Shown piece by piece: positions 8,278 to 59,150 of a DNA stretch of 64,000 nt. Position 1 is the stretch's first letter; each line of letters opens with the position of its first letter. Both the position numbers and the translations under genes were made by a program. Under the pieces are notes generated by a model, which made no database searches, was not told the origin of the DNA, and saw only the letters and a list, made by a program, of their open reading frames with translations. The DNA lies in the NCBI RefSeq assembly GCF_963921235.1, contig NC_086097.1:21950001-22014000 (forward strand). The letters are read 5' to 3'. This stretch comes from Mobula hypostoma. Taxonomy: Eukaryota.

Positions 8278-9110
8278 GGGTCTCGGCCTGAAACGTCCAC
8301 TGTACTCTTTTCCATAGATGCTGCTGGGTCCCTCCAGCATTTTGTGTGCGTTTCTTTATTTTGTGGCTGCCTGCAAAAAGAGGAATCTCACCTGCTCCAA
8401 CACCTCCTCCCTCACTACCATCCAGGCCCCCAAACAGTCCTTCCACGTGAGGCAACACTTCACCTGTGAGTCCGTTGGGGTCATTGACTGTATCCAGTGC
8501 TCCCAGTGTGGCCTCTTGGTGAGACCCAATGCACCTACACTCCATCAGCTGGAAAAAAGCAGGATCTCCCAGTGGCCACCCATCTTAATTCCACTTCCCA
8601 TTCCCATTCCGACATGCCAGTCCATGGCCTCCTGTACCAAAATGATGAGGCCACACTCAGGTTACCCTATTTTCCGTTTGGGCAGCCTCCAACCTGATGG
8701 CATGAACATTGATTTCTCAAATCTCCAGTAATGCCACCCCCACTTCACCATTCCCCATCCCCTTTTCCTTCTCTCACTTTATCTCCTTATTTGCCCATCA
8801 CCTCCCTCTGATGCTCCTCCCCCTTTTTCTTTCTTCCATGGCCTTCTGACCTCTCCGATCAGATGCCCCCCTTCTCCAGCCCTGTATCTCTTTCACCAAT
8901 CAACTTCCCAGCTCTTTACTTCACCTCTCCCCCCATCCTCCCGGTTTCACCTATCACCTTGTGTTTCTTCCTCCCCTCCCCCCACCATCTTCCTCTGACT
9001 CCTCATGTTTTTTTCTCGATGAAGAGTCCCAGCCCAAAACGCCGACTGTACCCTTTTCTATAGATGCTGCCTGGCCTGCTGAATTCCTCCAGCAATTCGT
9101 GTGTGTCTCA
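8278..9110 (+). mobile_element. Penelope-like element 3' part with GIY-YIG endonuclease remnant, flanked by pLTR copies
   Basis: TIQAPKQSFHVRQHFTCESVGVIDCIQCSQCG...PVATHLN...FRLGSLQPDGMNIDF, then a pyrimidine-rich UTR. pLTR pieces at 8278-8352 and 9017-9110 are in direct orientation. Confidence 0.85.
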
Positions 9111-10006
9111 AAATTGTACACTATATACATACTTTGATAATAAATGTACATTGAATTTTGATTCTTATTAAGAGTAACCCCTGTCAGAAGTCCATTTCAT
9201 TTGCAGCATATCAATGTGTTTCACAGAAGTGTTGTCAAAGATAAGTCCATGGCACAATCAAAAGGATATACAAACGTTTGTATTAATGCAAATGATCATA
9301 CTCTAGGTCAGAGCGGCAGGTTGTACCGAGAGTCTTAGAGGAAAGAGGGGGAGAGAATGTGGAGAGTTTTGGGGATGAATTTTCTGAGCCCTGAATTTTC
9401 AGCAGCTGAAGACTCAACTACCGGTGATGGAGCAGCAAAGGTCAGAGATGTATGGAACGAGTTCGTGCTGAGATCGAATCGCATTCTGATGGCACCATTC
9501 TAATACAACAGAAATATCGATGTAGAATGATTGATTTTCTCGTAAATTATTTGAGCAGGTTAAGCAGTAGCCATATGTCTGAAGAGAAATATAATTAGTT
9601 CATAGAACAATAATCCAATAAGATAAACCTGTAGTGCAATCTCCAAATTTATTGTTATAGTCGTAATTTGAGACATGATGCCAAATACTATAAAGTTTGA
9701 ACAAAAAGAATAACCTCTGGAATATCCAGTTACCTTTGATTAATATAGAAAGTAATTTACCTAGCGCTACTCACTGTGTTTGGAGCCTCATAAATATTAA
9801 TGAATAGAAGCCATTTTAGTACTGTACGCGAGATAATAGCATGTAACAAACCCAGAGACAGGAATACAGTTCCCAGACACAAAATCATCTAGTATCAGGC
9901 AGCCAACTGCTTCCAATCAATAGTTTTGATAGATCAGTTAGAAATAAATTAGGTTCCACTCAATGTAAATCTCACCTTGCAAATATTATGCTGCATGTTT
10001 CCTCTG

Positions 10007-10008
<2 letters not shown>

Positions 10009-10062
<54 letters not shown>
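10009..10062. repeat. (GT)27 microsatellite
   Basis: Directly visible. Confidence 0.98.
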
Positions 10063-10064
<2 letters not shown>

Positions 10065-10515
10065 CTAAGAAGTTCATCTGTGGTATCGTATCCCAGCTCC
10101 TGGAGAGTTTTTGACCTCTGGCAAATTCTCCAAGGCCTGCTTTACACAAAATCAAAATCGGTTTATTATCGCTGGCATGCACTTCACGGCCACTTTATTA
10201 GACACACCTGTACACCTGCTCATTAATGAAGATATCTAATCAGCCGATCATGTGGCATAAAAGCATGCAGGCATGGTGAAGAGGTTCAGTTGTTGTGCAG
10301 ATCAAGCATCAGAATGGGGAAGAAATGTAATCTAAGTGACTTTGAATGTGGAACAATTGTTGGTGCCAGATGGAGTAGTTTGGGTATTTCAGAAGCGTCC
10401 TCTGGAGTTAATAGAAAATGATGTGAGAAACAAAAAAACACATTCAGCGGTTTCTGTGGGCGAAAATGCCTTGTTAGTGAGAGAGGTCAGAGGAGAATGG
10501 CCAATAGTTTAAGCT

Positions 10516-10763
10516 TTCAGTACCCTGGATGAACTCAGCAGGTCGGGCAGCATCAGTCAGAAACGATGAGTCGACGTTTCAGGCCAGAACCCTTCGTCAG
10601 GACTGAAGAATGAAAGATGGGGAAGGATTTGAAGAATGCTTGTAGCGTCAGTTGATAGACCAGTAATTTGAAAGACAAAGGGGTGGGGGAGGGGAAGCAT
10701 TGACGTCATAGCCCTGAAAACAATGGGTGGTGGAAGAAGGAGGCGGAACCATGAGGGAGCTGC
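10516..10763 (-). mobile_element. PLE 3' fragment with hammerhead motif, inserted in the Tc1
   Basis: 7-bp TSD TTAAGCT at 10509-10515 and 10764-10770; pLTR sequence on the minus strand. Confidence 0.75.
10569..10604 (-). ncRNA. Minimal type-I hammerhead ribozyme motif (intact core)
   Basis: Minus: AGTC-CTGACGA-A-GGGT TCTG GCCT-GAAAC-GTC-GACT. Confidence 0.75.
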
Positions 10764-11144
10764 TTAAGCTGACAAGAAGGTGTCAGTATCTCAAATAACC
10801 ATGCATCATAACAGTATCGTGCAGGAGCATATCTGAATGCATAACACGTCGAACCTTGAAGAGGAAGGGCTACAGCAGCAGCAGACCATGAACATACACT
10901 CAGTCACCACTTTGTTAGGTACAGGAGGTACGTACCTAATATCTCAGTGTATGCCATGAAATCTGTTGCTTCATGGCGGCTGCACAGTTCAAGGCAGAAA
11001 AATTACCATAAGTTACATAAATAAATGAATGAATCATGGCATTGTTCTTTTGTGGTAGCATAACAGAACAGACATAAAATGACAATAAAATATGAAATTA
11101 TGTAAACGGTACAAAGAGGAACAATGAGGTGGTGTACATGGGTT

Positions 11145-11795: not shown

Positions 11796-11799
11796 TTAC

Positions 11800-12360: not shown

Positions 12361-12394
12361 TTTGCTCCCTTCGTTAAGTCAACTATCGTTTCTT

Positions 12395-13779: not shown

Positions 13780-14320
13780 CAATCGAGCATAGCCTCCAAC
13801 CTGATGGCATGAATAGCAATTTATCTAACTTCCAGTAATTGCTCCCCACCTCCTGTTCTCTCTTTTTCCCATTCCCTATTCTATCTTGTCTCTTACCCCT
13901 TTTCTTCTCCAGCTCCTTCTGGTGCCTCTCCTCCTTCCCTTTCTCCAATGTTCCACTCCCCTCTCCTGTCAGATTCCTTCTTCTTCAGCACTTTACCACC
14001 TTCAACTCTTACCTCTGAACATCTCACTTCATCCCCCTTTAGCTACCCACCTGCCTTCCCCCTCACCTGGCCTCACCTATCACCTACCAGCTCGTGGCCA
14101 GAGATAAGCAAAAATATCTGCTAGGGCCTCTTAATTTCTTCTCTAGAAACACACACAAAATGCTGGAGGAATTCAGCAGATTCCCCTTCCCTCCTCTCCC
14201 CCCCCCCCCCACCTTCTTATTCTGGCCTCTTCCCCCTTCCTTTCCAGTCCTGATGAGGGGACTTGGCCTGAAACATTGACTGTTTGTTCCTCTCCATAGA
14301 TGCTGCCTGGTCCGCTGAGT
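13780..14320 (+). mobile_element. PLE 3' fragment with decayed hammerhead at 14245-14282
   Basis: agcctccaacctgatggcatgaa (SLQPDGMN), a pyrimidine tract, then CAGTC-CTGATGA-GGGGACTTGGCCT-GAAACATT-GACTG. Confidence 0.8.
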
Positions 14321-16012
14321 AAAGGGAACTACAGAGGCATGAGATAGGAGCTGGCCAAGATATCAGGGATGAGTCAGTGGCTGTTGTTTACTTGGATTCT
14401 CAGAAGGCCTTTGACAAGGTGCCATGCTTGAGGCTGCTTAACAAGATAAGAGCCCATAATATTACAGAAAAGATACGAGCATGGATACAAGATTGGGTGA
14501 CTGGTAGGAGGCAAAGAGTGGGAATAAAGGGGGTCTTTTCTGTTTGGCTGCCAGTGACTTAGTGGTGTTCTGCAGGGGCCGGTATAGAGATTGCTTCTTT
14601 TCATGTTATATGCCAATGATTTGGATGGTGGATATAATACATTTGAGGGGCAGGTAATGTTGGGGAAGCTGGGTGTCTGGAGAAGGGTTCCGGCCCAAAA
14701 CGTTGACTGATTGTTTCTACGGATGCTGCCCAACCTGCTGAGTTCCTCCAGCTTGTTGTGAGTGTTGTCTGGAGAAGGTCTTAGGTAGATTAGGAGAACG
14801 GGCAAAAAAGAAATTTAGTGTAGGGAAGCGTATGGTCACAAACTTTGGTAGCAGGAATAGAGGCATCGACTATTTTGTAAATGAAGAGAACATTAAAAAT
14901 CAATGCTGCAAAGGGATTTGAGAGTCCTTGTGCAAGATTCCCTAAAGAAGGTTGAGTCTGTGATGAGGAAACAAAGGCATTGTTTGCATTCATTTTGACA
15001 GGACTAGAACATAAGAACAAGGATGTGATGCTGACAGTTTATAAGGCGTTGGTCAGACCGCACTCTGAGTATTGCCAGCAGTTTTGGGCTCCTTATCTCA
15101 GAAAAAAATGTGCTGACATTGGAGAGAGTCCACAGGAGTTCATGAGAATGATTCCAGGAATGAAAGGGTTAACACGTAATGGGCGTTTGATGGCTCTGGC
15201 TCTACACACGCAAGTTTAGAAGAATGAGGGAGATCTCATTGAAACCTATCAAATACTAAAAGGCCTAGGTAGAGTAGATGTGGAGGGGATTTTTCCTATT
15301 GTGGGCGAGTCTTGGACCAGAGAGCACAGCCTCAGAACAGAAGGACGTCCATTAGAACAGAGATGACGAGGAATTTCTTCAGCACAGACAACTCTGGATG
15401 CCAAGTCATTGGGTATATTTAAAGTGGGGGTATATACAAATACCCATGAATAACGCTGTGTCCTTTGGCTAAATTCATCGATATTCATGTATGATTGAAC
15501 TTAAACCTGAAACTTGAACTATGAGAAGTTCTTGATTAGTAAGGGTGTCAAAGGTTACAGGGAGAAGGCAGAAGAAGGCAGAAGGGGTTGAGAGAGATAA
15601 TAAATAGGATGGAACGGTGGAGCAGACACAATGGGGCATATGACCTAATTCTACTCCTATGTCTTGTGGTCTTATGGTCTTGTAATAAGACGCACAGATA
15701 GAGTAGCCAGCTGAAGACTTTATCCCGGGGTGGCAATAGCTAATATGAGGAGGCATCATTTGAAGGTGATTGGAAGAAAGGGGGATGTCAAAGTAGTTTT
15801 TTCACTCAAGGAGAGGCAGGTGCATGGAATGCCCTGCCAAGGATGGAGGGTTGAGCTGGATACATTAAGGAGATTTAAGGGACTCTTAGATAGGGGTCCA
15901 TGGCATAAAAAAGGTTGGGAACCCCCGGATTGATCTCAGAGTTGGTTGAAATGTCCACACAACATCATGGGCTGAAAGGCCTGTATTGTGCTCTAGTGTT
16001 CTGTGTTGTATA
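14321..16012 (+). mobile_element. Patchwork of CR1 ORF2 and 3' fragments with an embedded pLTR piece (about 14680-14765)
   Basis: VYLDSQKAFDKVP, VYKALVRPHSEYCQQFWAPYL and two separate 3' tails. Confidence 0.8.
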
Positions 16013-17215: not shown

Positions 17216-17281
17216 CGATAGATTCCCTCTGTGATCGACATTGGCATTAGTCCACCCTTCTCATTATTGGCCCCTTACTGT

Positions 17282-18083: not shown

Positions 18084-19544
18084 CTGTGAATTCAGTCTGT
18101 AGTTGTAGCCATACTGTGATGGACAGTCTATTTCGTACCTCCCCCCCCCCCATAGGCCTGTATCACAATCAGCCAATTGCACAATTGGCTGGCACAGATC
18201 ACTGCATGTCAACAGGGTGAATTATAAGAGATATCTGGTACTAATTCCCAGTGGGAGAGTCATTGGGAAGTGGACACAGGTGCAAAATGTTCGACTTATG
18301 GAAGATGAAGAAGGATAATTTTTTTTCCTTTTCCTATTATTTCTGGGTTTTAGTCTTCCCATCAATGACTCAGGAGTAATTTTTCTTGCGCAATAATACC
18401 TGTCCTTAGGCCATCTTGCAGTACCCTCCCTTTGTTTTCCTTTATAACCAGGCTTCAGCTTATATTCCACAGCTTCATTCCCAAACTGTGGTTCAACCTT
18501 TGATGATATCCTGTTCAAAGGTAGATCGGCAGTTGCCCCTTTGAGGATTGAATTTATTCCCATCCTTTGCAATAAGTCAGTTGAATCTCACTGGGAATAA
18601 GTATTGATAAGAAGTTGCCATCAGCAGCAGTTGGATCAATTGCAAACATTTAAAGCTCTATAATCAGGAATTTCAGTGCTCGAATATAAGCTGCAGATAA
18701 CTTCGCCCCAGTTGCAGGTTTCACACATGCAAAGGTTGAATAAGGAACTCCTCCCTGGAGCACAGGAGAATGAGGCAAGATCTCTTTGAGATACAAGATC
18801 ATCAGAGGGTAAATGCATGCAGGTGCGGTGAGATTAGAACTAGGGGTCATAGGTTTAGGGTGAAAAGTGAAATATTTAAGGGGAATCTCGGGGGGGAGAA
18901 CTTCTTCACTCAGAGGGTAGTGTGAGTGAGGAATGAGCTGCCAACAGAATTGGTAGATTGTAACATTTAAGAGAAGTTTGGATACTGTAGGTTCATGGAT
19001 GGAAGTGGTTTGGAGGTCTATGTCTAGGTGAAGATAGATGGGTCTAGGCAGAAGACCAGGCCAGCACAAACAAGATGGGTTGAAGGGCTTGTTTCATAGA
19101 ACACAGAACATAAAACAGAGAAGAGTATGGCAGAAGAACAGGCCCTTCAGCGCACAATATCGTGCTGAACCAATTAAATTAGTAACAAAAGGTTAACTAA
19201 ATGAACCTCTTCAGCCTACACGGTGTCCACATCCTTCCATTTTACTCACATTCATAGGCCTGTCTAAACTTCAATTAAAAGTCCTTTATGTTTCTGCCTC
19301 TACCACCACCCCAGGCAGACCATTCCAGGCACCCACCACCCTCTGTGTAAAAAACTTGCCTCTCACATCTCCTTTGAACTCAGTCGAAGTTTCAGGTCGA
19401 GACCCTCTCTCCATCTGTCCATTTCCCTCAATACTGTTTGACCTCCTGAGTTCCCCCAGTAGCTGGTGTGTCATTTCAGAGCCAGTCACCTTGGCACACA
19501 TTCTCTCCTGACAGGCATCAGCCAGCCAGATTTTAACAATAATC

Positions 19545-20045
19545 CTAAACACAGGAGATTCTGCAGATACTGGAAATCCAGAGCAACACACACAATGCTG
19601 AAGGGACTCAACAGGTCAGGCAGCCTCTACGGAGGGAAATAAACAGTCCACATTTTGGGTCGAGACCCTTCATCAGGACTGGAAAGGGAGGGGGAAGACA
19701 ACAGAATGAGAAGGTGGGGGAGGAGGTGGAGGTGATGGGTGAGATGAGTTGAGGGGGAATGTGGGTGGGTGGAGGAGGTGGGAGTGAAGTGGGAACCTGG
19801 GAGGTGACAGGGATTGAGAAGGAATATGATAGGAGAGGAGTGAGGACCATGGAAGAAAGGGAAGGAGGCGGGCACCAGTGAGAGGTGATGGGCAGTTGAG
19901 GAGGGGTAAGGGGGGGTCTAGAACAGGGAATGGATAAAGAGAGAATGGGAGGGGAAGAAATTACTGGAAGATAGAGAAATCAGTCATGTTGTCATGTTGG
20001 AGACGACCCAGATTGAATATGAGTTGTTACTCCTCCAGCCTGAGA
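19545..20045 (-). mobile_element. PLE 3' fragment with decayed hammerhead at 19644-19681
   Basis: Minus: CAGTC-CTGATGA-A-GGGTCTCGACCC-AAAATGTG-GACTG followed by pLTR. Confidence 0.8.
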
Positions 20046-20139
20046 CAATAATCTAGCAGCTTTGTTGCCGTTATTGAGTTGTGGTGATTCTTGCCTAAGT
20101 TTAGTTTTCTTAAGGTATTGGAAAAAGATTCACCAATGT

Positions 20140-20615: not shown

Positions 20616-20904
20616 AGATTCCTAACCAGTTTAAGATTTCAGATTACTGACCAGATTTAATTTCCACAGCTGCTGTGGTAGTATTTGAACTCAGTTCTCC
20701 ACACCTTTAATCCAGGCCTCTGGTAACTTCAGAATCAGAATCAGGTTTAACATCATTGGCATATGTCACGAAATTTGTTGTTTTGTGGCAGCAGTACAGT
20801 GTAATGCATAATTTAAAATACCATAAATTACAAGAAGAAAATCTAAATCAGTAGTGCAAAAAGAAAGCAAAAAGGTGAGGTAGTATAATCTTCTATAATC
20901 TTAT

Positions 20905-22130
20905 AGATTCCCACAGCTATCTTGATGATACCTCTTCCTGTCCTGACTCCTGTAAAAATGCTACTCACTTTTCTCAGTTCCTTCGTCTCAGCTGCATCTG
21001 TTTCCAGAATGAAGCTTTCCTTTCCCGGACATCAGAATATCCTCCTTCGTTCAAAGAACAAAGTTTCAGTTTCTCCACCATTGATGCTGCCCTCATCTGC
21101 AATTCTCCATTTCCCGGACATCTGCACTCACTCCATCATCCTGCTGCCTTAACACAGATTGAGTTCCTCTTGTCCTCACGTACCACCCCATCAGCCTCGA
21201 CATCCAACACATCATTCTCCGCATCTTCCGCCACCTTTAACAGGACTCTACCACCAAACACACCTTTACCTCCCCCCCTCCCCACTCTTCATTTTCCACA
21301 GGATCACTCCCCCAGTGACTCTCTTGGCCATTCGTCCTTCCCCACTAATCTCCCTCCTAGCACTTACCCGTGCAGGCGGTCAAACTGCTACACCAGCCCA
21401 TTCACCTCCTTCCTGGGTCCTAAGCTTGCCCTTCCAGGAGAGGCAACACTTCACCTGCGAACCTTTTAGGGGTCGTCAACTGTATCCAGTGCTCCCGACG
21501 TGGCCTCCTCGACATTGGTGAGACCCGACATAGGTTGGTGGATGACTTCGTTGAGCACCTCCGCTTCATCCGCAAGAAGTGGAAATTCCCCTGGACAACC
21601 GTTCTTATTCCTATCCCCTTTCCTGTTCCGACATGTCAGTCCATTGCCTCCTCATCTGCCACTGTCAGGATGGAAGAGCAACACCTCATGTTCCATCTAG
21701 GTAGCCTCCAACCTGATGGCATGAACATTAATTTCTCCAACTTCTGGTAATTTTTCCCCTCCCCTCCCCTCCTCTTTAATTTCCCACTCTGGTCTCTTAC
21801 CTTGTCTCCTCACCTGACTATCACCTCTCCCCGGTGCCCCTCTTCTTCCCCTTCTCCTGTAGTGTATTCTCCTCTCGTATCAGATTCCCTCTTCTCCAGC
21901 CTTTTGCCTTTTCCACCTATCACCACATCCCAGCTCCTTACTTCATCCCCCAAACCCCACCCACCTGGCTTCACCTATCACCTTCCAGCTTCCCCTCTTT
22001 CCCCTCCCGCCACCTTCTTATTCCCTTCCTTACTGACCCTGATGATGGTTCCCAGCCCAAAATGTCAAGTATTTGTTCATTTTCGTTGATCCTGCTTGGC
22101 CTGCTGAGTCCCCCCAGCATTTTGTGTGGA
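20905..22130 (+). mobile_element. Penelope-like element: RT thumb, GIY-YIG and 3' repeat, frameshifted
   Basis: SCKNAT.FSQFLRL..I.S, QERQHFTCE, IGETR, FVEHLRFI, MEEQHLMFHLGSLQPDGMNINF; degenerate hammerhead at about 22035-22070. Confidence 0.88.
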
Positions 22131-22479
22131 TTGTTCTGGAAGGAATAGGCTGAAGATGAGGGGATTTAAAAGGAACCTGAGGGGCAATTTTTTTTTTGCA
22201 CAGAAGTTGGTCAGTCTATGAACTGTCGGAGGCTGGTACAGTGATGACACTTAAGAGGTATTTGGACAGCAATATGGACAGAAAAGGTTTTGAAGGATAT
22301 GGACCAAACCCAGGGAAATGGGACTAGCTCAGTTGCCATGGACAAGTTGGGCTGAGGGGCTTGTTTCCATGCTGTATGTCTCCATGCACTGGAACACCGA
22401 GCTTCCCGAAATATATTTGACAGATGCTGATAAAAGCCATCAAGGAAGTTTGTTTATTTTTAAATTTTATTTTATTGAA

Positions 22480-27614: not shown

Positions 27615-27682
27615 GGTCAGGCAGCATCTATGGAAAAGAGTAAAGAGTCGATGTTTTGGGTCGAGACCCTTCTTCAGGACTT
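27615..27682 (-). mobile_element. pLTR fragment with mutated hammerhead core
   Basis: Minus: AGTC-CTGAAGA-A-GGGTCTCGACCC-AAAACATC-GACT. Confidence 0.7.
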
Positions 27683-27789
27683 AATAAGTGGTCTTTATTA
27701 AATAAAGCCACAGCAATATCTAGCTGGAATGGATATCCAGCAGCAGCTAAAAGGATCCCCTAACACGATTTTTTTTTCTTTTACAAAAC

Positions 27790-33539: not shown

Positions 33540-33790
33540 AAAAACGCAACAACAGGAATTCTGCAGATGCTAGAAATTCAAGCAACACACATCAAAGTTG
33601 CTGGTGAACGCAGCAGGCCAGGCAGCATCTCTAGGAAGAGGTACAGTCGATGTTTCAGGCCGAGACCCTGTTAGAGGACTCTTCCTTCAGTTAGTCCTGA
33701 CGAAGGGTCTCGGCCTGAAACGTCGACTGTACCTCTTCCTAGAGATGCTGCCTGGCCTGCTGCGTTCACCAGCAACTTTGATGTGTGTTG
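33540..33790. mobile_element. Head-to-head pair of PLE terminal repeats with 13-bp TSD
   Basis: CTTGGAGTATTGT at 33527-33539 and 33791-33803; arms at 33579-33669 and 33704-33794. Confidence 0.88.
33692..33729 (+). ncRNA. Minimal type-I hammerhead ribozyme motif (intact core)
   Basis: TAGTC-CTGACGA-A-GGGT CTCG GCCT-GAAAC-GTC-GACTG; predicted cleavage after 33724. Confidence 0.8.
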
Positions 33791-35637
33791 CTTGGAGTAT
33801 TGTGTTCAGTTCTGGTCACCTCATTATTGGAAGGATTGAAAGCTTTAGAGAGGGTGCAGAAGAGATTTACCAGGACACTGCGTGGATTAGAGAAGATGTC
33901 TTTTGAGGTGAAGTTAAGCAAGCTAGGGCTTTTCTCTTTGAAGTGAAGGAGGATGAGAGATGACTTGATAAAGGTGTGTGAGATGATAAGAGGCTTAGAG
34001 AGAGGATGCCAGCACCTTTTTTTTCCCAGAGTGGAAAGGGCTGATATGCGAGGACTTAATTTTCAGGTGGAGAAAAGTATAAGGGGATGTCAGAGGTAGG
34101 TTTTTTCACAGAGCATGAAAGTACATAGAATGCCCTGCTATGGGTGGTGGTAGAGGCAGATACATTAGCAAGATAGGCACAAAGATGAAACGCAGGGCTA
34201 TGTGGGAGGGAAAAGTTAGATTGATCTTAAAGCGAGTTAAAAAATCACCACAACAGAATCAGGAACAGCATTCAGCAGAAAGAAAAACATTACTTAGACC
34301 TAAATTGGATCCATTTTTTTTTACAAGAAAGAACGTAATTGGAACAAAAAACCCAAAATGCTTTGTAATGCGAAGAGGTCAAAGTAGTAAGAATGTTGCT
34401 ATATTAAAGTAGTGATTTGAGTTATGCAGGTTGGTTCAAGAACTGTATAGCTGAAGGAAAGTAGCTTTTCTTGAACCGGGTAGCGTGGGTCTTCAGACTT
34501 CTGTACCCAAGTCTGAATCTTCTTGAGTCCTGTTGAAGGGTCTCGGCCCCCTCCATGGATGGGGAGGAGGTGTGTGTGTGTGTCTCATCTGCAGAATCCT
34601 TTCTGTTTCTGTGCTCAAGGCTGGGTCACTGTGTCCAAGGAAGGGGGCACACATTCAGGCTCGAGGCAGGGAGTACACGCTCAAGCCCAGGTTTGTAGGA
34701 CACATGGATGGTGTACATTTGGGCCCAAGCCTGGGAGCACAGACACAGGCTGACTTTGATGCCTGAGGCTGAGTTTACATGAAAGCATACTTGAATGGCA
34801 CTTATACATGGGCCCAGCATCGGGTGCAGGTGTGATGGAGAGGTCCGTTGGTTTTCTGGGACCTGAAGTTTGTTCTGGACCTCCCTGAGCCCCAGTATCT
34901 TACCCTCCTCAGCAGAACCTCAGATAACCTGCTCCTCGTCCTTCAGAATGGTAGTTTTGGGAGACGTTCCAGAAATCCTGTAAAGTTGCCCTAGTGTATC
35001 TTGTACACAGTCAGAATCAGAATCAGCTTTATTATCACCGTTTTATATGGTGTAAAATTTGTTTTGCAGCAAAGATGTAAAATTGATATAAATTACAAAG
35101 TGTGGAAAAAAAAAGAAATAATGAGGTAATGTTCATGGGATCATGAACCATTCAATACCTGATGATAGAGGGGAGGAAGTTGTTCCTGATTCACTGAATG
35201 TGTCTAGGCTCCTGTATTTCCTTCCTGAGGGCAGTAATGAACATATACTCTGCAGTCACAGTGGAGTGGCAGAACGGTTGGAATTCATTCTTTCATCTCA
35301 GATCCTCCTGTGTACAATATATCTATCTGGACTCAGCCTCAGAATAGAGGGGTGTCCTTTTAGAACAGAGATAAGGAAGAATTCCTTTAGCCAGAGAGTG
35401 GTGAATCTGTAGAATCAATTGCCACAAGCGGCTGTGGAGGTCATTACTTTATGTATATTTAAGGCAGAGGTTGATAGATACTTGACTGGTCAGGGCATAA
35501 AAGGATATGGGGAGAAAGCTGAGAGGAAAATTGGATCAGCCATGATATAATAGTGGAGCAGACCCGATGGACTAAATGGCCTAATTCTGCTCCTATATCT
35601 TAAGGTCTATCTATTATTTATCTACCTATCTTTTATA

Positions 35638-35940: not shown

Positions 35941-37064
35941 CCTATCTTTTATATATTGTTTATTTAGTGATTTATCTATCTTCTATTTATTTATTGTTTG
36001 TTTATTTATTTTTGAGATACAGCCTGATAACAGGCCCTTCTGAGTCAATAAACCCAATTACAGCCATGTGACCAATTAACCAATGCTAACCCATGAATCT
36101 TTGGAATGTGGGAGAAAACTGGAGCCCTTGGAAGAAACCCACCTGGTCATGGAGAGAAGATACAAACTCCTTACAGCGATGCAATTGAACACGGGTCGCT
36201 GGCGCAGTAAAAGCGCTGTGCTATTGTGCTACCCCAATATATTCCCTTCAATATACTCCCTTTTCACTCGTACCCTTCCTGCTGATATTCCCAGCCTGGA
36301 AAAGGACCTGGTCAAGAGCAACCAGTCTCCTGCAACGCCTCAGTTTTGGGAATATAAGACCATTGCAAACCAAGACTGTCTAATGCCCCTTTTGAACGCA
36401 CTGTGATTTCTGTGTAGAGTCATTGTAAATGGGTTTCCTTTTCAAAATCCAACTGGAATCTGGTTTCCATTGATGTGATTTGACTGATTAAATTGCTTGA
36501 TAATGGATAACCTTTGGAACAACAGGGCATTCCTAGCTATTCAATGCAAATAGATGCTAAAAATAGCAAGCAGCACTGTGGGAAAATGTAATTAAATGTA
36601 GTTCTCATGCAAAAGATCTAATTTGCTCATGCCTCAACTGTAAGTACAGGAGAACAATGAGACTGAGAGCATTAAAAGATACCATGTCTGTTCAATAAAA
36701 AAACAAAGCTGCTGGTTCTAACAACAATCTGCTGTTGAAATTCCTGCAACCCGACAAGTTACACAAGTAATATTTTAATGGAGATCAATATCTGTCATAG
36801 ACAGCATAAAGATGAAAAACACAAGAGCTTCTGCAGATGCAGGAAATCCAGAGTAACACACACAAAATGCTGGAGGAATTCAGTAGGTCAAGCTGCATCT
36901 GTGGAAATGAATAAACAGTTGCCGTTTCGGGTGAGTGCATGGAATGGGCTGCTGGCGGAAACGACGGGATCTTTTAAGAGACTCCCGGTTAGGTACATGG
37001 AGCTTAGAAAAATAAAGGGCTATTGGTAAACCTAGGTAGTTCTAAGGTAAGGACATGTTCAGCA

Positions 37065-38879: not shown

Positions 38880-39660
38880 CTAAATCCCTCAAATTTACCA
38901 CACAAGTTGATAAGGTGGTTAAGAAGTCATGTGGTGTATTGGACTTCATTAGTGGGGGACTGAGTTCAAGAGCTTTGAGGTAATGTTGCAGGCTCTATAA
39001 AACTCTGGTCAGATCAGAGACCTAAACACTTGGAATATTGTGTTTAGTTCTGGTCACTTCATTATAGGAAGGATGTAGGAAGCATTAGAGAGAGTGTAAA
39101 GGAGATTTACCAGGATGCTTCCTGAACTAGAGGGCATGTCTTCTGAAGATAGGTTGAGTGATCTAATGCTTTTCCCTTTGGAGTGAAGGAGGAAGGTCTT
39201 GTCCTGGATTGTCGACTGTTTGCTGTTTGTCGTAGGCGCCACCTGTCCTGCTGAGATCCTCCACCATTTTATGCGTGTTGTTTGGAATCTCCAGCGTCTG
39301 CAGATTTTCTCATGAAATGATAGATCTGTGCAAGATGATAAAAGGCGTTGATAGAGTGGATAGCCAGCGACTTTATCCCAGGGTAAAAATGGCCAATACA
39401 AGGGAGCATAATTTAAGATGATTGGAGGAAAGTATGGGGGTGGGGTGAATGTCAGAGAGTGGTGAGTGTGTGGAATGCCCTTGCAAGGGGTGAGGCTAGA
39501 GGCAGATACTATACATTTAAGATGCTCCTAGATAGGAATATGGATGATGGAAAAATGAAGGGATATGTATGAGGGAAGGGTTAGATTGATCTTAAAGTAG
39601 GTTAAAATGTTGGCACAACATCATGGGCCAATGGACCTGTACTGTGCTGTAATGTTTTAT
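38880..39660 (+). mobile_element. CR1 3' fragment with nested decayed pLTR (about 39194-39310)
   Basis: LEYCV.FWS and RRFTRMLP signatures; embedded cctgctgagatcctccaccatttt...ccagcgtctgcaga. Confidence 0.75.
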
Positions 39661-41930: not shown

Positions 41931-41949
41931 GATACGTTTCTACCTAAGG

Positions 41950-42549: not shown

Positions 42550-43540
42550 CATTCAGAAGAAGGAACCTCACAGAAGAGGAGAGTAGACCACAGGAGAAAG
42601 GGAAGGAGGAGGGGCACCAGGGGGAGGTGATAGGCAGGTGAGGAGAAGAGAAGAGATAAGAGGGAGCCAGAGTGGAGAATGGAAGAAGGGGGAGGGGGGG
42701 AAAATTGTCAGAAGTTAGAGAAATCAATGTTCATGCCATCAGGTTGGAGGCTACCCAGACAGAATATGAGCTGTTGCTCCTCCAACCTGAGAGTGGCTTC
42801 ATCGTGGTAGTAGAGAAGACCACATAGGGAGGGACGAATGGACAAGGATATCACAGAGAGAGTGATCCCGGCAGAAAGTGGAGAGTGGGGAGGGGTAACG
42901 ACATGTTTGGTGGTAGGATCCTGTTGAAGATGGCAGAAGTTAATAAGAATGTTTGCTGGATTTGGAGGCTCATGGGGTGGTAAGAGGAACCCTATCCCTG
43001 TTAAGGCAGTAGGAAGGTGTCGTGAGGGTGGCGGAGATGCAGGTGAGGGTAGCATCAATGGTGTGGGAAGGACAACCTCATTCTTTGAAGAAGGACGGCA
43101 TTTCTGATGTTCTAGAAAGGAAAGCCACATCCTGGGAACAGATGCTGTGGAGACAAAGGAACTGAGAAAAGGGAATGGCATTTTTACAGGTGACAGGGTG
43201 GGAAGTAGTCAAGATAGCTGTGAGAGTCAGTAGATTTATAAATGATTTGTAGACAATTTGTCCTCTGACTTGGAGACAGGGAGATCAAAAAAAGGGTGAG
43301 AGGTGTCAGAAATTCCAAGTGAATCTAAGGGCAGGGTGGAGGCTGCAAGTAAAATTGAAGAAGTTTTTGAGCTCAGCATGGGTACATGAAGCAACACCAA
43401 TGCAGTCGTCAATGTAGCACAGAATGAGTTAGGGAGCGTTACTAGTGAATGCTTGGAACATGGACAGTTCCAAGTAGCCAGTGAAACGTCAGATATAGCT
43501 GGGGCCTATGTGGGTGGTTATGGCTACCCCTTGGGTCTGG
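42550..43540 (-). mobile_element. Penelope-like element with RT core, internally deleted
   Basis: Minus: QTQGVA..HIGPSY, YIDDC (43402-43416), NAIPFSQFL, LEEQQLIFCLGSLQPDGMNIDF. Confidence 0.88.
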
Positions 43541-47926: not shown

Positions 47927-48187
47927 GGGACACGGTAGCGTAGTGGTTAGTGTAAGGTTATTGCAGGGCCTGAGACGCAGGTTCAATTCCTGCCACTGCC
48001 TGGAAGGAGTTTGCTCGTTCTCCCCACTACCGTGTGGGTTTCCTCCGGATGCCCCGGTTTCCTTCCACATTCTAAAGACGTACAAGTCAGTAGGTTAATT
48101 GGTCACATGGGTGTAATTGGGCAGAGCGGACTCACTTGTCTGAAGGGTCCTGTTACCATGTTGTATCCCTAAATAGAGAAAAAAAAA
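47927..48187 (+). mobile_element. Full V-SINE-like element
   Basis: A box TAGCGTAGTGG, B box GGTTCAATTCC, V-core gtgtgggtttcctccggatgccccggtttcc, LINE-like tail and A-rich end. Confidence 0.85.
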
Positions 48188-54660: not shown

Positions 54661-56590
54661 AGAAAGTCAATTTGCAGTTTGAGTCTGTGGTAAAGAAGGC
54701 AAGTGCAATGTCAGCATTTATTTCAAGGGGAATAGAATATTGTGAAAGGGAAAGACAAGATAGAGGCAGGAAAGTTGTTTCCACTGCTAAGTGAGACTAG
54801 AACTAGGGGACATAGCCTCAAGATTCAGGGGAGTAGATTTAGAGTTGAGAAGGAATTGCTTTTCCCAGAAGGTGATGAACCTGTGGAATTTTCTGCCCAA
54901 TGAAGCAGTGGAGGATACCTCAGTAAATATATTTGAGACAAGGTTGGATAAACTTTTGCATTGTAGGGAAATTAAGATTTATGGGAAAAAGGCAGATAGG
55001 TGGAGATGAGTCCATGGCCAGACCAGCCATGATCTTACTGAATGGCGGAGCAGGCTCGACGGGCCAGATGGCCGACTCCTGCTCCTATTTCATATGTTCT
55101 TATGAAGGGAAGGAGAGGATGTTGAGCCTTCACAAGGCACTAGTCAGGCTGTACTTGGAGGGTTGTCAACAGTTTTGGGCACTATATCTCAGAGAGGATG
55201 TGTTGTCATTGGAGAGAGTCCAGAGGAGGTTCATGAAGATAATTCTGGGGAAATCTCATTGAAACCTACTGAATGTTGAAAGGAAAAGATAGGATGGATG
55301 TGGAGAGGATGTTTCCTATGGTGGGGGCATCCAAAACTAGAGGACGCAGCCTCAAAACTGAGGGGTGACCCTTTCGAACAGAGGTAAGGAGGAATTTTTT
55401 TAGATAGAGTAGCCAGACTGCGGTGGAGGCCAAGTCCGTGGGCATATTTAAAGCGGAAATTGGTCGTTCCCTGATCGGTCAGGGCATCAAAAGATACGGA
55501 GAGAAGGCAGGTATATGGGAGTGAGTGGGATCCAGGATCAGCCATGATGGAATGGTGGAGCAGACTCGATGTGCTGAATGGCCTAATCTGCTCTTATGTC
55601 TTATGGTCTTAGACATTCCACCTTTCACCCTTAAACCATGACCTCTAGTTGTAGTCCCACCCAATTTCAGTGGAAAAAGCCTGCTTGCATTTACCTTATC
55701 TATACCCCTGTTAAGAATTATGTCAATAATTCTTTTCCTCCCGTAGATGCTGCGTGACCCATTGAGTTCTTCCAGCAGATTGTTCGTTGCTTCAGCTCTG
55801 ATGTAACCAATAGAACTTTAGGTCCAGAGTTACAAGATGGGATCAGTTAAATAGCCTTTTTCTGGCTGGTATTGGGATTGGTTTATTGGCTTATTACCCT
55901 CACCTGGACCAAGATATAATGAAGAGCTTGTCTTGTGCACTGCCTATAAAGATCAAATCATTACCAAGGAGGGCCATGGTAACATAGTGTTCGGCGCAGT
56001 GCTCTTATAGCTTGGAGTATTCTGAATTTTGGAGTTCAATTTTTGTCGCAGTCTGCAAGGAGCTTGGCTTCCTCCCACAGTCCAAACACATACCGGTTAG
56101 TTGGTTAGTGGTCATTGTAAACTGTCCTGTGATTAGCCTAGGGTTAAATCGGTGGGTGGCTGGAGGAGCATCTCGCTGGGTCGGAAGAGCCTATTCCATG
56201 CTGTATTTTTCAATAAGATAAATTACACCGTGTATTGAGCTAGAAGATTAGATTAGATTATGAGGACACGCAGTCCCCTTTTATTGTCATTTAGTAATGC
56301 ATGCATTAAGAAATGATACAATGTTCTTCCAGAATGATATCACGGAAACCGACTTAAAAACTAACAAAAACCATATAATTATAACATATAGTTACAACAG
56401 TGCAAAACAATACCGTAATTTGATAAGAACAGACCATGGCACGGTAAAAGTCTCAAAAGTCTCTAGAAAGTCCCACCATCTCACGCAGACGGTAAACTTC
56501 CAGCGCCGCCAACTTGCCAATGCAGCATCCTGGAAGCATCCGACCACAGTCCGACTCCGAGTCCGTCCGAAAACGCCGAGCCTCCGACCA

Positions 56591-56728
56591 CCAGGTTCTG
56601 ATGAAGGGTCTCGGCCCGAAACGTCGACTGTACCTCTTCCTAGAGATGCTGCCTGGCCTGCTGCGTTCACCAGCAACTTTGATGTGTGTTGCTTGAATTT
56701 CCAGCATCTGCAGAATTCTTCGTGTTTG
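56591..56728 (+). mobile_element. Young PLE terminal repeat
   Basis: Nearly identical to 33697-33794 and to the reverse complement of 33550-33669; CpGs retained. Confidence 0.85.
56594..56630 (+). ncRNA. Minimal type-I hammerhead ribozyme motif (perfect core, weak helix I)
   Basis: GGTT-CTGATGA-A-GGGT CTCG GCCC-GAAAC-GTC-GACTG; predicted cleavage after 56625. Confidence 0.75.
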
Positions 56729-57334
56729 TGAAACCTATTGAATATTGAAAGGCCTAGATAGAGTGGATGTAGGGAGGATGTTTCCTGTAGTGGGGGAGTC
56801 CACAACCAGCCGCAGAATACAAGAACGTCCCTTTAGAACAGAGATGAGGAGGAGGTTCTTTGGCTAGAGGGTTGTGAATCTGTGGAATCCATTGCCACAG
56901 ATGGCTGTGGAAGCCAAATCATTGGGTACATTTAAAGCGAAGGTTCATATGTTCTTGATTAGTGAGAGTGTTTAAGGTTACGGTAAGAAAGCAAGAGAAT
57001 GGGGTTGAGAGAGGTAATAAATCAGCCTTGATGGAAAGGTGAAGCAGACTCGATGGGCCGAATGGCCCAACTCTGTTCCTATGTTTTATGCCCTTATGGT
57101 CTATGTATATTTTTCCATACAATTTGCATTTCTTTTTATTCCTTTAAATGCCTGTAAAGAAACAAGTCTCAAGGTACTATTTGTTGATATATATGTGCTT
57201 CAATACTAAATTTATTTAGAACTTTTAAAGTGGAATACTTTGCAATTGATTTTCTGTGTCCAATTTTATCTGATGTTTCTCTGCAAACGTGCCATTTGTT
57301 TCAATGGTAGTCAAGTGTCCCAGTTGTTTTTCAG

Positions 57335-57528
57335 GATGTGGAGATTAGACTAAATGCAGCTAAGTATCTACCTCGCATCAATGAACTGCTGAACAAAGTC
57401 CCTCGCCAAATGCTGCTGCTCCTAAAGACTAACGACTTGCTTCGAGGGATTGAGACGTCGCTGCAGACACGAGCCAGCGCCAGTTCCTTCATCACCATGT
57501 CTCGCTGCTGCATCAGAGCTGTGTCTAG
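57335..57528 (+). CDS. ADCK1: Internal coding exon (194 nt, phase 0 to phase 2) of aarF domain-containing kinase 1, C-terminal region
   Basis: Acceptor gtttttcAG at 57334 and donor AG|GTTGGT at 57529. Translates DVEIRLNAAKYLPRINELLNKVPRQMLLLLKTNDLLRGIETSLQTRASASSFITMSRCCIRAVS, matching the vertebrate ADCK1 segment VPRQMLLILKTNDLLRGIE...TRASASSFLNMSRCCIRA as I recall it. Confidence 0.93.
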
Positions 57529-58734
57529 GTTGGTTAAAGCGCCTGAATGTCATCATTCATCAGCTCAAAGTGGAAGGGTTGGATAATTCCTGCATCCAAG
57601 AGTGCTTAGATCGCCTGGGCACTGAGCAAGAGGAGAGACCTATTGGTGCATGTGGTTAAAATTGGGAATGCTCCTCCTCGTAGATCGGTAGGAACAGATC
57701 CACTGAAAGGAGACTGCATAAGTACAATCAGAATCAGGTTTAACATCACCGGCGTATGTCATGAAATTTGTTGTCTTTGCGGCAGCAGTACAATGAACTA
57801 GGCAATGATAGAGGGAACAAAACCGTGAAATGGGGAATGAGCAGAGCCAATAGATTGTTCTCTTGAAAGGAGTTAGAACTTCGTCGATGGGTAAAATGGC
57901 CCCCTCAAATGGTACATTACTGTAAGTCTATAAAAAACAGGTTAAGTTGCCATGAAATTCGTCCCCAGCCTAGTTTTCTTTGTGTGTTTACTCTCCTTAC
58001 TGGCTACCTTATAATTCTCAAGAGCCTGCCTGATCTTAGTTTCCTGAACTTTCAGTATGTCTCTGTCTTCCCCTTAACCAAGTGTTCCACTTCTCTTGTC
58101 AACCACTGCTGTGAATCTATGAAAATTAGGTCACGTTACCATGAAGTTTCTCCCCGACCTAGTTTTCCCTACGTGTTTAGAGGTCAAATGCGGGCAAATG
58201 TGACTAGCTCACTGCACAGGACTGTTGACCTGGATCAGTTAGGTCGAAGGGCTGTGTGACTCTATGGCTCTATGATACAGGCCAGCAATACCTTTTTGTT
58301 GTTCGTTTGTAACCACATTGTGCATTGCTAGACCTCCCGCCCCCACACACCCCAAGAAATTCCCAAGTTCATTCTCCGGTCTCTGCTGATGTTGCTGTCA
58401 GACAGCTCCCACTGTTATTGAGGGTGTATTTGCTAATGGTGTCACATCTGATGGCTGCCTGGTAACTTCTCCTGAGTTATAAGGTGAGAACAGGTAATGG
58501 AACTGACCATTGTCACATTCATTACCATAACATCAATAAGTTATGGTAATCAGCCTCTTTGAGCCCTGTTGGCATTTACCTACCAAATGAGCAAATAGCT
58601 CGAGTCAACTCTTTTGTTCCCATGCACCTTCAGTCCTTTTTCCTCAGTATATCTGATGCAATCTTAAACGTTTCTGGCTCAGTCAGTAACCAGGGAAGTC
58701 AACTCCACAGCCCCTGTTAAGCAATTGTACGTGC

Positions 58735-58760
58735 ATGCGTGTGCGTCTGCATGCCGTGTA

Positions 58761-58809
<49 letters not shown>

Positions 58810-58952
58810 CTCTGCTTGTGTGTGTATGTGTGTTTGCAAGAGTGTGTGCATGTATGTATGTGTGAGTGTATGTGTGTGTTTGTGTGTGTGGGTGCATGTG
58901 TGTGGATGTGTCTGCATTTGTGTGTGTGTGTGTGTGTGCGCACGTGTGTATA
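58735..58952. repeat. Compound (TG)n microsatellite
   Basis: Directly visible; source of the CV- and HT-repeat ORFs. Confidence 0.97.
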
Positions 58953-59049
58953 TGTTCCTACTTTCACTTAGTTGATACTTCCCTTAGTTTGTTGCTGCCT
59001 GTTCTGTTCAATCCTTTGTTTACAAACAGTGAGTAAAAGTGACTCCCAA

Positions 59050-59150
59050 CAACACACACGAAATGTTCAATGAACTCAGCAGGTCAGGCAGCATCTATGG
59101 AGGAGAATAAATAGTTGACATTTCACGCTGAGGTCCTTCATCAGGACTGA
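59050..59150 (-). mobile_element. pLTR fragment with decayed hammerhead (59113-59149)
   Basis: Minus: CAGTC-CTGATGA-A-GGACCTCAGCGT-GAAATGTC-AACT. Confidence 0.7.

What the first reader, a model, noticed from the sequence alone, without database searches (positions are those of the whole stretch)
8278..59150. Dispersed family of minimal, probably dimer-dependent hammerhead ribozymes carried by Penelope terminal repeats
Seen: a recurring motif CAGTC-CTGA(T/C/A)GA-A-GGGT CTCG GCCC-GAAAC-GTC-GACTG. It gives helix I (CAGTC/GACTG), the CUGANGA and GAAA boxes, a 4-bp helix II with tetraloop, and a loopless palindromic helix III (ACGU) ending in a GUC cleavage triplet. Intact cores are at 10569-10604(-), 33692-33729(+) and 56594-56630(+). 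Decayed copies are at about 9017, 14245, 19644, 22035, 27646 and 59113, with partial ones at about 8278, 14683, 19381 and 34525. Decay is largely at CpGs. Established: PLEs carry minimal type-I hammerheads that are thought to cleave as dimers. Inference: more than ten copies in 64 kb implies a very large genome-wide family in this lineage, and many copies are only the ribozyme-bearing repeat, which suggests SINE- or retrozyme-like mobilisation. I cannot tell whether this family is already catalogued.
Basis: partly seen in the sequence, partly recalled or inferred. Interest (0 to 1): 0.8.

Follow-up and report, generated by a model that had tools for sequence, protein, structure and literature searches.

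The report
Penelope retroelement ends carrying minimal hammerheads
The repeated motif is the minimal hammerhead-ribozyme motif already known from the terminal repeats of Penelope-like retrotransposons, present here in an unusually large and recently amplified family, so it is a real but ordinary feature.

Summary
All 13 listed sites carry the motif, whole or in part. A model built from copies finds 12 window sites at E<1e-3.

The carrier is a Penelope-like element (PLE). A full-length copy elsewhere in the genome (L019) has the motif in both terminal repeats. These flank a 1041-codon frame with reverse-transcriptase and GIY-YIG endonuclease matches.

The family is very large. There are 72,574 genome matches within 2 mismatches of one 33-mer and 39,061 exact matches to a second variant.

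The architecture matches the "min-HHR" of Cervera and De la Pena 2014 (PMC4209133): no loop 3, a palindromic ACGU helix III, and an unpaired A after A9.

Window copies are 5'-truncated 3' ends and head-to-head pairs with target-site duplications. I found no tandem arrays.

Catalysis is not shown:
- Rfam models do not match.
- There is no covariation signal.
- The active dimer fold is energetically disfavoured.
- No copy starts at the cut site.

Verdict: a new member of a known kind, of low to moderate interest.

The parts
8267..8345 (+). 5'-truncated unit that starts in helix II; the CUGANGA box is absent
   Evidence: Model R1 E 2.5e-5; nhmmer 8278-8363; 5' end at pLTR position 162
8318..8728 (+). 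Decayed C-terminal frame of a PLE ORF (endonuclease part, ending ...GSLQPDGMNIDFSNL)
   Evidence: Translation read against the L019 ORF end. Pfam finds nothing in this decayed frame
8987..9129 (+). pLTR/tail unit with a decayed hammerhead at 9004-9058 (C3>T, U4>C, G12>A, U16.1>C)
10525..10633 (-). Unit with an intact hammerhead core at 10558-10612; helix I 4 bp, helix II 4 bp (G.U at 10.1-11.1)
14142..14320 (.). Short inverted stub (14142-14179, -) next to a unit (14207-14320, +) with a hammerhead at 14238-14292 (G16.2>A)
14672..14773 (+). 5'-truncated unit inserted in a LINE RT frame, flanked by a 12-bp duplication; G12>A
   Evidence: Sequence read
19378..19471 (.). Small head-to-head pair of partial units (19378-19406 -, 19419-19471 +)
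19555..19719 (-). Unit with a decayed hammerhead at 19634-19688 (G12>A, C15.2>T, C17>G)
20879..22136 (+). 3' part of a decayed PLE: ORF remnants 20879-21747, then a unit at 22011-22136 with a decayed hammerhead at 22027-22081
   Evidence: 168,353 first-look candidates for the frame 21424-21747
27615..27689 (-). Short unit with a decayed hammerhead (G12>A, G16.2>A)
33548..33796 (.). Head-to-head pair inserted in another repeat with a duplication of about 13 bp. The + arm (33678-33796) has an intact core at 33692-33729. The - arm (33554-33680) has lost its CUGANGA box and bears the longer tail
34509..34549 (+). Fragment holding only the 5' half of the hammerhead
   Evidence: nhmmer E 2.8e-4; sequence; no model R1 hit at E<=1
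36824..36931 (-). Unit that lacks the 5' half of the hammerhead
39169..39311 (+). Strongly decayed unit
42711..43208 (-). Decayed PLE ORF C-terminal frame; no hammerhead unit detected downstream of it
56586..56719 (+). Unit 5'-truncated inside helix I; the core at 56594-56630 is intact, with C at 11.1 and the long tail
59044..59151 (-). Unit with a decayed hammerhead (C15.2>T, helix II broken)
60722..60836 (+). Weak partial unit
   Evidence: Model R1 E 0.022; nhmmer

Best explanation
The copies are 3'-terminal pieces (pseudo-LTR plus 'tail') of a very abundant, recently active Penelope-like retrotransposon. Its ORF carries a Neptune/Nematis-type CX4CX2C linker.

Each unit carries a minimal type-I hammerhead motif made of:
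- a 4-5 bp open helix I;
- the CUGANGA box;
- one unpaired A;
- a 4-bp helix II with a tetraloop;
- GAAA;
- a loopless palindromic ACGU in place of helix III;
- a GUC cut site.

The cut site lies about 65 nt from the short 3' end of the element and about 100 nt from the long one.

Shown here: the motif, its place in both terminal repeats of a full-length RT-GIY-YIG element, its abundance, and the insertion anatomy (5' truncation, head-to-head pairs, target-site duplications, tail on one side).

Inferred from the literature, not shown here: in a transcript or RNA pair with two sense motifs, the ACGU stretches pair to build a double hammerhead that cuts after GUC. Activity is probably weak and protein-assisted.

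The genomic copies are dead-on-arrival products of target-primed reverse transcription of RNA that was uncut at the 3' motif. Their cores then decay about three times faster per site at the three CpG-linked core positions than at the other ten.
For: Motif in the window:
- Core pattern 4 found against 0.04 expected.
- 12 model hits at E<1e-3.

Full-length copy L019:
- Identical motifs at 2093-2117 and 5604-5628.
- They flank a stop-free frame at 2178-5303 (1041 aa).
- Pfam RVT_1 E 4e-5 and GIY-YIG E 3e-4, in that order.
- The frame shows ADKGG, YIDD, CKRNKCYTC and GVIY...YIGET.
- 873 homologues at E<=1e-10 among the 8000 candidates scored. Most of the 120 listed carry precomputed PF00078, and 21 also carry PF01541.

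Abundance:
- 72,574 matches at 2 mismatches or fewer, against 0 for the reversed control.
- 39,061 exact matches to the second variant.
- 105,471 matches of an 18-mer with A at position 6.

Fit to the helices: 85.4% of cells pair, against 43% or less when the partners are slid.

Conservation among 70 older copies: hammerhead columns outside CpGs, N7 and the loop average 0.86 majority frequency. The upstream pLTR averages 0.59 and the spacer 0.68.

Insertion anatomy:
- 3' ends are bimodal: 32 of 72 at pLTR positions 243-258 and 29 of 72 at 270-291.
- Of 15 neighbour pairs within 5 kb among the first 100 exact hits, 11 are head to head.
- Duplications of 11-15 bp flank the pairs, and arm ends are unequal in 5 of 5 pairs.

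Literature: the same features are in print for PLE min-HHRs (PMC4209133, main text parts 1-2 of 4 read) and for PLE insertions (PMC8557442, passages).
Against: - No Rfam hammerhead family matches: not at gathering score, not at E<=10 on the window, and not on a 91-nt slice around the best copy.
- There is no covariation signal: score 0.183 against 0.171 +/- 0.012, and 65 of 500 shuffles reach it. RNAalifold does not recover the fold.
- Single copies fold no better than shuffles, with z from -0.10 to 0.30.
- The nested double-hammerhead costs -12.7 or -17.9 kcal/mol. The best dimer is -31.5 or -31.7, and two monomers are -23.2 or -23.4. Helix III pair probabilities are about 0.
- The Pfam scores lie below the curated cut-offs: 23.9 against 29.6, and 21.4 against 22.6.
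- None of 30 young copies starts at the predicted cut site.
- Only 2 of the 15 close pairs are on the same strand, so most intact cores have no partner in cis.
- The most abundant variant, which is also that of the intact copy L019, has U at 11.1, giving G.U instead of the conserved G-C.
- A minor subfamily has C at core position 6: 4,450 matches, against 2,495 for G and T together. This suggests catalysis is dispensable for spread.
- The 3' blocks of the unit are as conserved as the hammerhead (0.82-0.85).
Confidence: 0.82

Rival explanations
1. The motif is a vestige, or a protein- or RT-recognition element. On this view it is kept as part of the conserved 3' module of the element, and self-cleavage plays no part in the life cycle here.
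For: - The 3' blocks downstream are as conserved as the hammerhead (0.82-0.85 against 0.86).
- The dominant variant has a weakened 10.1-11.1 pair.
- An A6>C subfamily exists.
- No copy starts at the cut site.
- The active dimer is disfavoured energetically.
- Published work on an Anolis PLE found that hammerhead mutants insert normally in vitro and that no RNA-seq reads end at the cut site (PMC11167929, passages).
Against: - Every core position of the hammerhead consensus is kept in the dominant variants. So are the unpaired nucleotide after A9 and the palindromic 15.2-16.2, features shared with PLE motifs of distant phyla (PMC4209133).
- The Anolis motif does cleave when the protein is present, and a C3/G8 double mutant partly rescues activity.
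Confidence: 0.2
2. The short units of 100-150 bp are a separate non-autonomous family, SINE-like or retrozyme-like. On this view a small RNA that starts just upstream of the ribozyme is copied by the PLE enzyme, rather than the units being truncated copies of the full element.
For: - 13 of 30 young copies start within pLTR positions 133-161, just 5' of or inside the 5' half of the motif. Only 1 starts elsewhere inside the pLTR. Uniform truncation does not predict this.
- Non-LTR retrozymes have been proposed to derive from PLE pLTRs (bioRxiv 10.64898/2026.07.22.740005, abstract and Results read).
Against: - The 5' ends are spread over about 30 nt, not fixed.
- Many short copies are arms of head-to-head pairs whose junctions show microhomology.
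- No head-to-tail arrays were seen. The direct pair L040 is a 460-bp partial tandem that includes the ORF end.
- Short and long copies are the same sequence, 0-2 differences per 98 nt among four young pairs.
- No tRNA-like head: the only tRNA-like match in the window is at 47929-48001.
Confidence: 0.12
3. The motif is a chance resemblance within an unrelated repeat.
For: - The Rfam models do not match.
- There is no covariation.
Against: - All 13 fixed core positions, the cut triplet and both helices are present together.
- The motif lies where PLE hammerheads lie, in both pLTRs of an RT-GIY-YIG element.
- Shuffles expect 0.04 matches in the window, against 4 found.
Confidence: 0.01

Closest known systems
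Minimal hammerheads (min-HHRs) in the pseudo-LTRs of metazoan Penelope-like elements (Cervera and De la Pena 2014, PMC4209133)
   Same: - Type I, no loop 3, palindromic 15.2-16.2.
- One unpaired nucleotide between A9 and 10.1.
- Short helix I (4-5 bp).
- Located in both pLTRs.
- Mostly found as single dispersed motifs or as pairs on opposite strands 100-700 bp apart.
- Thousands of copies per genome.
   Different: - Helix II here is 4 bp, not the 7-8 bp described for Schistosoma or the 6 bp described for D. virilis.
- Copy number is far higher than the 'remarkable' 4,000 (coelacanth) and 9,000 (Xenopus) reported: 72,574 near-consensus cores here.
- Sequence is very uniform (39,061 identical 33-mers), unlike the 'extreme variability' described for most metazoans and more like the D. 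virilis case.
- The dominant variant has G.U at 10.1-11.1.
Hammerhead of the Anolis Poseidon element PAc (PMC11167929)
   Same: - A vertebrate PLE with the motif at the pLTR/ORF border.
- Internal start of reverse transcription that gives a 'tail'.
- In vitro the enzyme cleaves and extends both DNA strands.
   Different: - There the ORF starts at stem II. Here the first Met of the frame lies about 140 nt after the cut site.
- Activity was tested there and not here.
Non-LTR retrozymes and newt satellite-type type-I hammerheads (PMC7229834; bioRxiv 10.64898/2026.07.22.740005)
   Same: - A type-I hammerhead with a weak helix III that needs a second copy.
- A proposed link to PLEs.
   Different: - Retrozymes are head-to-tail arrays of 150-450-bp units, with loop-loop contacts and circular RNAs.
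- Here there are no arrays, no loop 1 and no match to RF00163.

Membership tests
Hammerhead ribozyme (type I, minimal variant) | Conserved core: C3 U4 G5 A6 N7 G8 A9, G12 A13 A14, A15.1-U16.1, H17 | tested here: met
   All positions are kept in 3 window copies. They are kept in 24 of 67 copies held that span C3 to G1.1, and in 9 of 37 in the unbiased 264 kb
Hammerhead ribozyme (type I, minimal variant) | Helices I and II flank the core | tested here: met
   85.4% of 405 cells pair, against 43% or less when the partners are slid. Because the structure was read off these same sequences, this shows fit, not proof
Hammerhead ribozyme (type I, minimal variant) | Helix III closes the core | tested here: inconclusive
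   Helix III is possible only between two copies, as a 4-bp ACGU/ACGU duplex. ViennaRNA gives those pairs a probability of about 0, and the double-hammerhead fold is 13-19 kcal/mol above the best dimer. Energy models ignore the tertiary core
Hammerhead ribozyme (type I, minimal variant) | Match to the curated covariance model (Rfam RF00163 and related families) | tested here: not met
   No hammerhead family matches at gathering score or at E<=10, on the window or on a 91-nt slice. The whole-genome search gave 0 matches, but only 73 of 380,711 candidates were scored and the control genomes were silent
Hammerhead ribozyme (type I, minimal variant) | Covariation that supports the helices | tested here: inconclusive
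   The covariation score is 0.183 against 0.171 +/- 0.012, and 65 of 500 shuffles reach it. The copies are one young family with little variation
Hammerhead ribozyme (type I, minimal variant) | Site-specific self-cleavage after H17 | not testable with these tools
   No RNA run on record holds the element. None of 30 young genomic copies starts at the cut site
Penelope-like element | A single ORF with reverse transcriptase followed by a C-terminal GIY-YIG endonuclease | tested here: met
   L019 frame 2178-5303: RVT_1 at aa 580-696 and GIY-YIG at aa 945-1019, both below Pfam's cut-offs. ADKGG, YIDD and GVIY...YIGET were read in the frame. Most of the 120 listed homologues carry precomputed PF00078, and 21 also carry PF01541
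Penelope-like element | Pseudo-LTRs formed by a partial tandem | tested here: met
   L019 segments 1945-2184 and 5463-5702 are 98.8% alike
Penelope-like element | Strong 5' truncation, adjacent inverted truncated copies, and a 30-40-bp tail at one end | tested here: met
   11 of 15 close pairs are head to head. The 3' ends fall in two classes about 35 nt apart. The arm ends are unequal in 5 of 5 pairs
Penelope-like element | Hammerhead motif inside the pLTR | tested here: met
Non-LTR retrozyme | Head-to-tail arrays of 150-450-bp units, each with a type-I hammerhead | tested here: not met
   No such array is in the window. Only 2 same-strand pairs occur among the 15 close pairs. The pair I fetched is a partial tandem of PLE 3' ends
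SINE | Defined 5' head with an internal Pol III promoter (tRNA, 7SL or 5S derived) | tested here: not met
   The 5' ends spread over pLTR positions 133-161. No tRNA-like or other RNA-family match lies at the units

The most novel reading that the evidence does not exclude
The units of 100-150 nt headed by the ribozyme are not random truncation products. On this reading they are a preferred product whose 5' end is set by the hammerhead region itself. This could happen through a transcription start just upstream, or through turn-around of the enzyme at the CCUUC/GAAGG inverted repeat that spans the 5' half of the motif.

If so, the hammerhead region, rather than its catalysis, shapes how this element multiplies. 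The genome would also hold natural variants that separate motif from catalysis: U at 11.1 in the dominant variant and C at position 6 in a subfamily.
Probability: 0.15. Interest if true: 0.5.

Novelty: new member of a known kind. Interest (0 to 1): 0.25.

Why it matters
The role of hammerheads in Penelope-like elements is still open. Published work shows weak or protein-assisted cleavage and normal insertion without it.

This genome offers a very large and very young data set. It holds tens of thousands of identical cores, an apparently intact full-length element, a weakened dominant variant and a subfamily with a non-canonical core. In such a set, the link between ribozyme integrity and copy success could be counted rather than guessed.

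It does not add a new kind of ribozyme or a new kind of mobile element.

Tried and rejected
- **Rfam.** I scanned the whole window at gathering score and at E<=10, and a 91-nt slice at E<=10. No hammerhead family matched.
- **Whole-genome RF00163 search.** It gave 0 matches. Only 73 of 380,711 candidates were scored and nothing rang in the control genomes, so the result is uninformative.
- **Pfam on eight decayed window frames next to the units.** It found 0 families. The link to a PLE had to come from a better-kept copy elsewhere.
- **Covariation and consensus folding on 50 copies.** These gave no signal.
- **Expression.** No RNA holder is listed for the full-length element, and all 24 runs are kept as contigs. 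Contigs cannot show RNA ends, so I did not use read laying.
- **One cDNA or two templates for head-to-head arms.** This is not resolved. Four young pairs are too alike to tell (0-1 differences within a pair, 0-2 between pairs). L044's two arms share one variant. L001's arms differ at 5 of 86 sites, including subfamily-diagnostic ones.
- **Earlier notes of this scan.** There are none for this genome or sequence.
- **Failed steps.** A semi-global alignment script misbehaved and crashed and was replaced by parsing the nhmmer alignment.
- **Rows dropped.** L009, which overlaps the window, was left out of the pooled sequence set used from then on. In one search, alignments under 60 nt were left out (21 of 93). 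One of the 30 young rows duplicates L001 1539, and the start at 200 is an alignment artefact with hammerhead remnants upstream.

Full report
**Observation**

The motif is real and far above chance.
- CTGANGA-N13-GAAAC occurs 4 times in the window, against 0.04 expected.
- A 26-mer from helix II to helix I occurs 5 times at 3 mismatches or fewer, against 0 expected.
- A profile search (nhmmer, three rounds) with the unit of about 190 nt finds 22 pieces in the window.
- A covariance model built from 50 copies, with the hammerhead helices as its structure, finds 12 window sites at E<1e-3.

Among the additions is the inverted partner arm at 33634-33677(-). The three cores called intact are intact at all core positions. 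The one at 56594-56630 is cut off inside helix I.

**What carries the motif**

Decayed frames ending in GSLQPDGMNIDFSN(F/L) lie about 300 bp upstream of the copies at 9004 and 22027. Pfam sees nothing in these decayed frames.

I searched the window's own genome with one such frame. The genome has 3.48 Gb in 200 contigs, and the window is C1:21950001-22014000. The search gave 168,353 first-look candidates, among them a place with a 1042-codon open frame.

That place is L019. It reads as follows.
- An identical motif sits at 2093-2117 and at 5604-5628.
- A stop-free frame runs from 2178 to 5303.
- Two terminal repeats of about 240 bp are 98.8% alike.
- The frame matches RVT_1 (E 4e-5) and then GIY-YIG (E 3e-4). 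Both scores are below Pfam's curated cut-offs.
- The frame shows ADKGG, YIDD, a CKRNKCYTC linker and GVIY...YIGET.

The passages of PMC8557442 that I read name the DKG motif as diagnostic. They name a Zn-finger-like linker of the form CX2-5CxxC as typical of the Neptune and Nematis clades. Most of the 120 listed homologues carry precomputed PF00078, and 21 also carry PF01541. The best named ones are uncharacterized proteins of Chiloscyllium punctatum at 71% and 68% identity, so the genome is probably that of a cartilaginous fish.

This is the architecture of a Penelope-like element with the hammerhead in its pseudo-LTRs.

**Size and age of the family**

- One 33-mer (window 56598-56630) has 72,574 genome matches at 2 mismatches or fewer, and the reversed control has none.
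- The variant of L019 and of window 33697-33729 has 39,061 exact matches.
- In an unbiased 264 kb (the window plus twenty 10-kb stretches picked at round coordinates), 37 copies span the core and 9 of them are intact. Scaled to the genome, that is roughly 0.5 million motif-bearing units and about 0.1 million intact cores. This scaling is my extrapolation, not a count.
- Four young pairs taken from one chromosome differ at 0-2 of 98 positions, and L019 keeps an open frame. The last burst is therefore very recent.

**Anatomy of the copies**

The copies share the element's 3' end and differ at the 5' end.
- The 3' ends fall into two classes: pLTR positions 243-258 (32 of 72) and 270-291 (29 of 72). 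This matches the 30-40-bp 'tail' described for PLEs.
- Among the first 100 exact hits on C1 (7.0 Mb), 15 neighbour pairs lie within 5 kb, against 6.8 expected. Of these, 11 are head to head, 2 are tail to tail and 2 are on the same strand.
- I looked at five head-to-head pairs: window 33548-33796 and L041-L044. All have duplications of 11-15 bp and junctions just 5' of the motif. One arm ends near position 246-251 and the other near 282-289. The exception is L041, whose second arm stops near 198.
- The copy at 14672 sits in a LINE RT frame between two copies of a 12-bp word.
- The only direct pair I fetched (L040) is a 460-bp partial tandem that includes the ORF end.
- No array of units is in the window.

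All of this is the published PLE insertion signature. Nothing requires a SINE or a retrozyme.

**Is it a working ribozyme?**

The sequence fits the min-HHR of Cervera and De la Pena 2014 point by point (main text parts 1-2 of 4 read).
- It has no loop 3.
- Positions 15.2-16.2 are palindromic.
- There is an unpaired nucleotide after A9.
- Helix I is short.
- It lies in both pLTRs.
- Many copies are solitary or lie on opposite strands.

That paper reports no cleavage by a single motif and weak cleavage by dimers. PMC11167929 (passages) reports cleavage of an Anolis PLE motif only when the element's protein is present, normal insertion by core mutants, and no RNA-seq ends at the cut site.

My own tests add no support for catalysis.
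- No Rfam hammerhead model matches.
- There is no covariation: 65 of 500 shuffles reach the observed score.
- RNAalifold does not find the fold.
- Single copies fold no better than shuffles.
- The double-hammerhead fold lies 13-19 kcal/mol above the best dimer fold.
- None of 30 young copies begins at the cut site.

Two points speak for constraint on the master elements. Non-CpG hammerhead columns are more conserved among 70 older copies (0.86) than the upstream pLTR (0.59) or the spacer (0.68). However, the 3' blocks are just as conserved (0.82-0.85).

Two points speak against a need for full activity. The dominant variant has U at 11.1. A subfamily has C at position 6: 4,450 matches, against 105,471 with A and 2,495 with G or T.

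**Decay**

Of 81 core lesions in the 37 unbiased copies, 35 are CpG transitions at G12, C15.2 or G16.2. That is 0.35 per site, against 0.114 elsewhere. The window has a CpG observed/expected ratio of 0.32.

**An unexplained detail**

Among the 30 young copies:
- 15 run on upstream of the pLTR;
- 1 starts at position 79;
- 13 start at positions 133-161, just before or inside the 5' half of the motif.

Even truncation along a 3.7-kb element cannot give this distribution. Junctions often show CCTTC/GAAGG or CTAG microhomology. Three causes remain open:
- turn-around of the cDNA;
- priming on both DNA strands, which is reported in vitro;
- a transcription start just upstream of the motif.

The sample is small, and part of it was chosen by an intact core.

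**Comparison and novelty**

The kind has been in print since 2014 and is reviewed in PMC6155905 (passages). A 2026 preprint surveys vertebrates, including one cartilaginous fish, for the related retrozymes (abstract and Results).

My literature searches were:
- 'Penelope-like' with 'hammerhead': 37 papers;
- 'Penelope', 'hammerhead' and 'shark': 4 papers. The one I opened mentions sharks only for the shape of the fold, and the other three titles are off topic;
- 'Penelope', 'Chondrichthyes' and 'retrotransposon': 12 papers, whose listing shows nothing on this family.

I cannot say that this exact family is unpublished, because I did not see the supplements.

What is unusual here is scale and uniformity. 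The counts are 72,574 near-consensus cores, compared with the 4,000 and 9,000 called remarkable in 2014. For further comparison, a genome about eight times larger holds up to 120,000 retrozymes (PMC7229834, passages).

**Verdict**

The identity as a PLE min-HHR family is well supported (0.82). Catalysis and dimer dependence rest on the literature. The SINE or retrozyme inference is not supported. This is a new member of a known kind, with interest 0.25.

Noticed in passing
L019 pLTR positions 133-162 (L019 2072-2101); window 33670-33690, 56586-56600; L041-L044: The 5' ends of young short copies pile up just upstream of or inside the 5' half of the hammerhead: 13 of 30 young copies, and none at the cut site. 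Head-to-head junctions there show CCTTC/GAAGG or CTAG microhomology.
   Followed up: partly
L011 1175-1230(-), L012 1158-1208(-), L013 1183-1238(-), L017 2029-2083(+), L006 2900-2946(-): A subfamily has C instead of A at core position 6 (CUGCNGA) and still sits behind ORF ends. Genome-wide there are 4,450 matches, against 2,495 for G and T together and 105,471 for A.
   Followed up: partly
L019 2112 and 5623; window 33716: The most abundant variant (39,061 exact 33-mers), which is also that of the apparently intact element, has U at 11.1. The most conserved helix II pair is therefore G.U, or the unpaired A pairs with the U instead.
   Followed up: partly
window 33722-33727 and every intact copy: The cut site lies at the centre of a 6-nt palindrome (GUC|GAC). 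Two copies could therefore also pair there in a way that competes with the ACGU helix III. Predicted probabilities for both pairings are about 0.
   Followed up: partly
window 3643-3699 (+): A twister-P1-like match of 28.1 bits (gathering score 67.2, E 0.071) lies inside a LINE reverse-transcriptase frame. It is probably chance.
   Followed up: no
window 47929-48001 (+): A tRNA-like sequence sits just at Rfam's gathering score (29.6 against 29 bits) with several non-standard pairs. It may be a pseudogene or a tRNA-derived repeat head.
   Followed up: no
window 28608-30681 (-): Frames of an LTR-type retroelement match an aspartyl protease-like domain, RVT_1 and the start of an RNase H-like domain.
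   Followed up: no
window 51611-52006 (-), 53931-54398 (+), 2762-3728 (+), 59271-60254 (-): LINE fragments match RVT_1. Two of them also match the ALKBH8_N family (PF09004) at the end of the frame.
   Followed up: no
L019 2140-2215: The 3' module holds a possible stem between AGAUGCUG...UGG and CCAGCAUCU that brackets the short-form 3' end. This block is as conserved across subfamilies as the hammerhead. I read the stem by eye and did not fold it.
   Followed up: no
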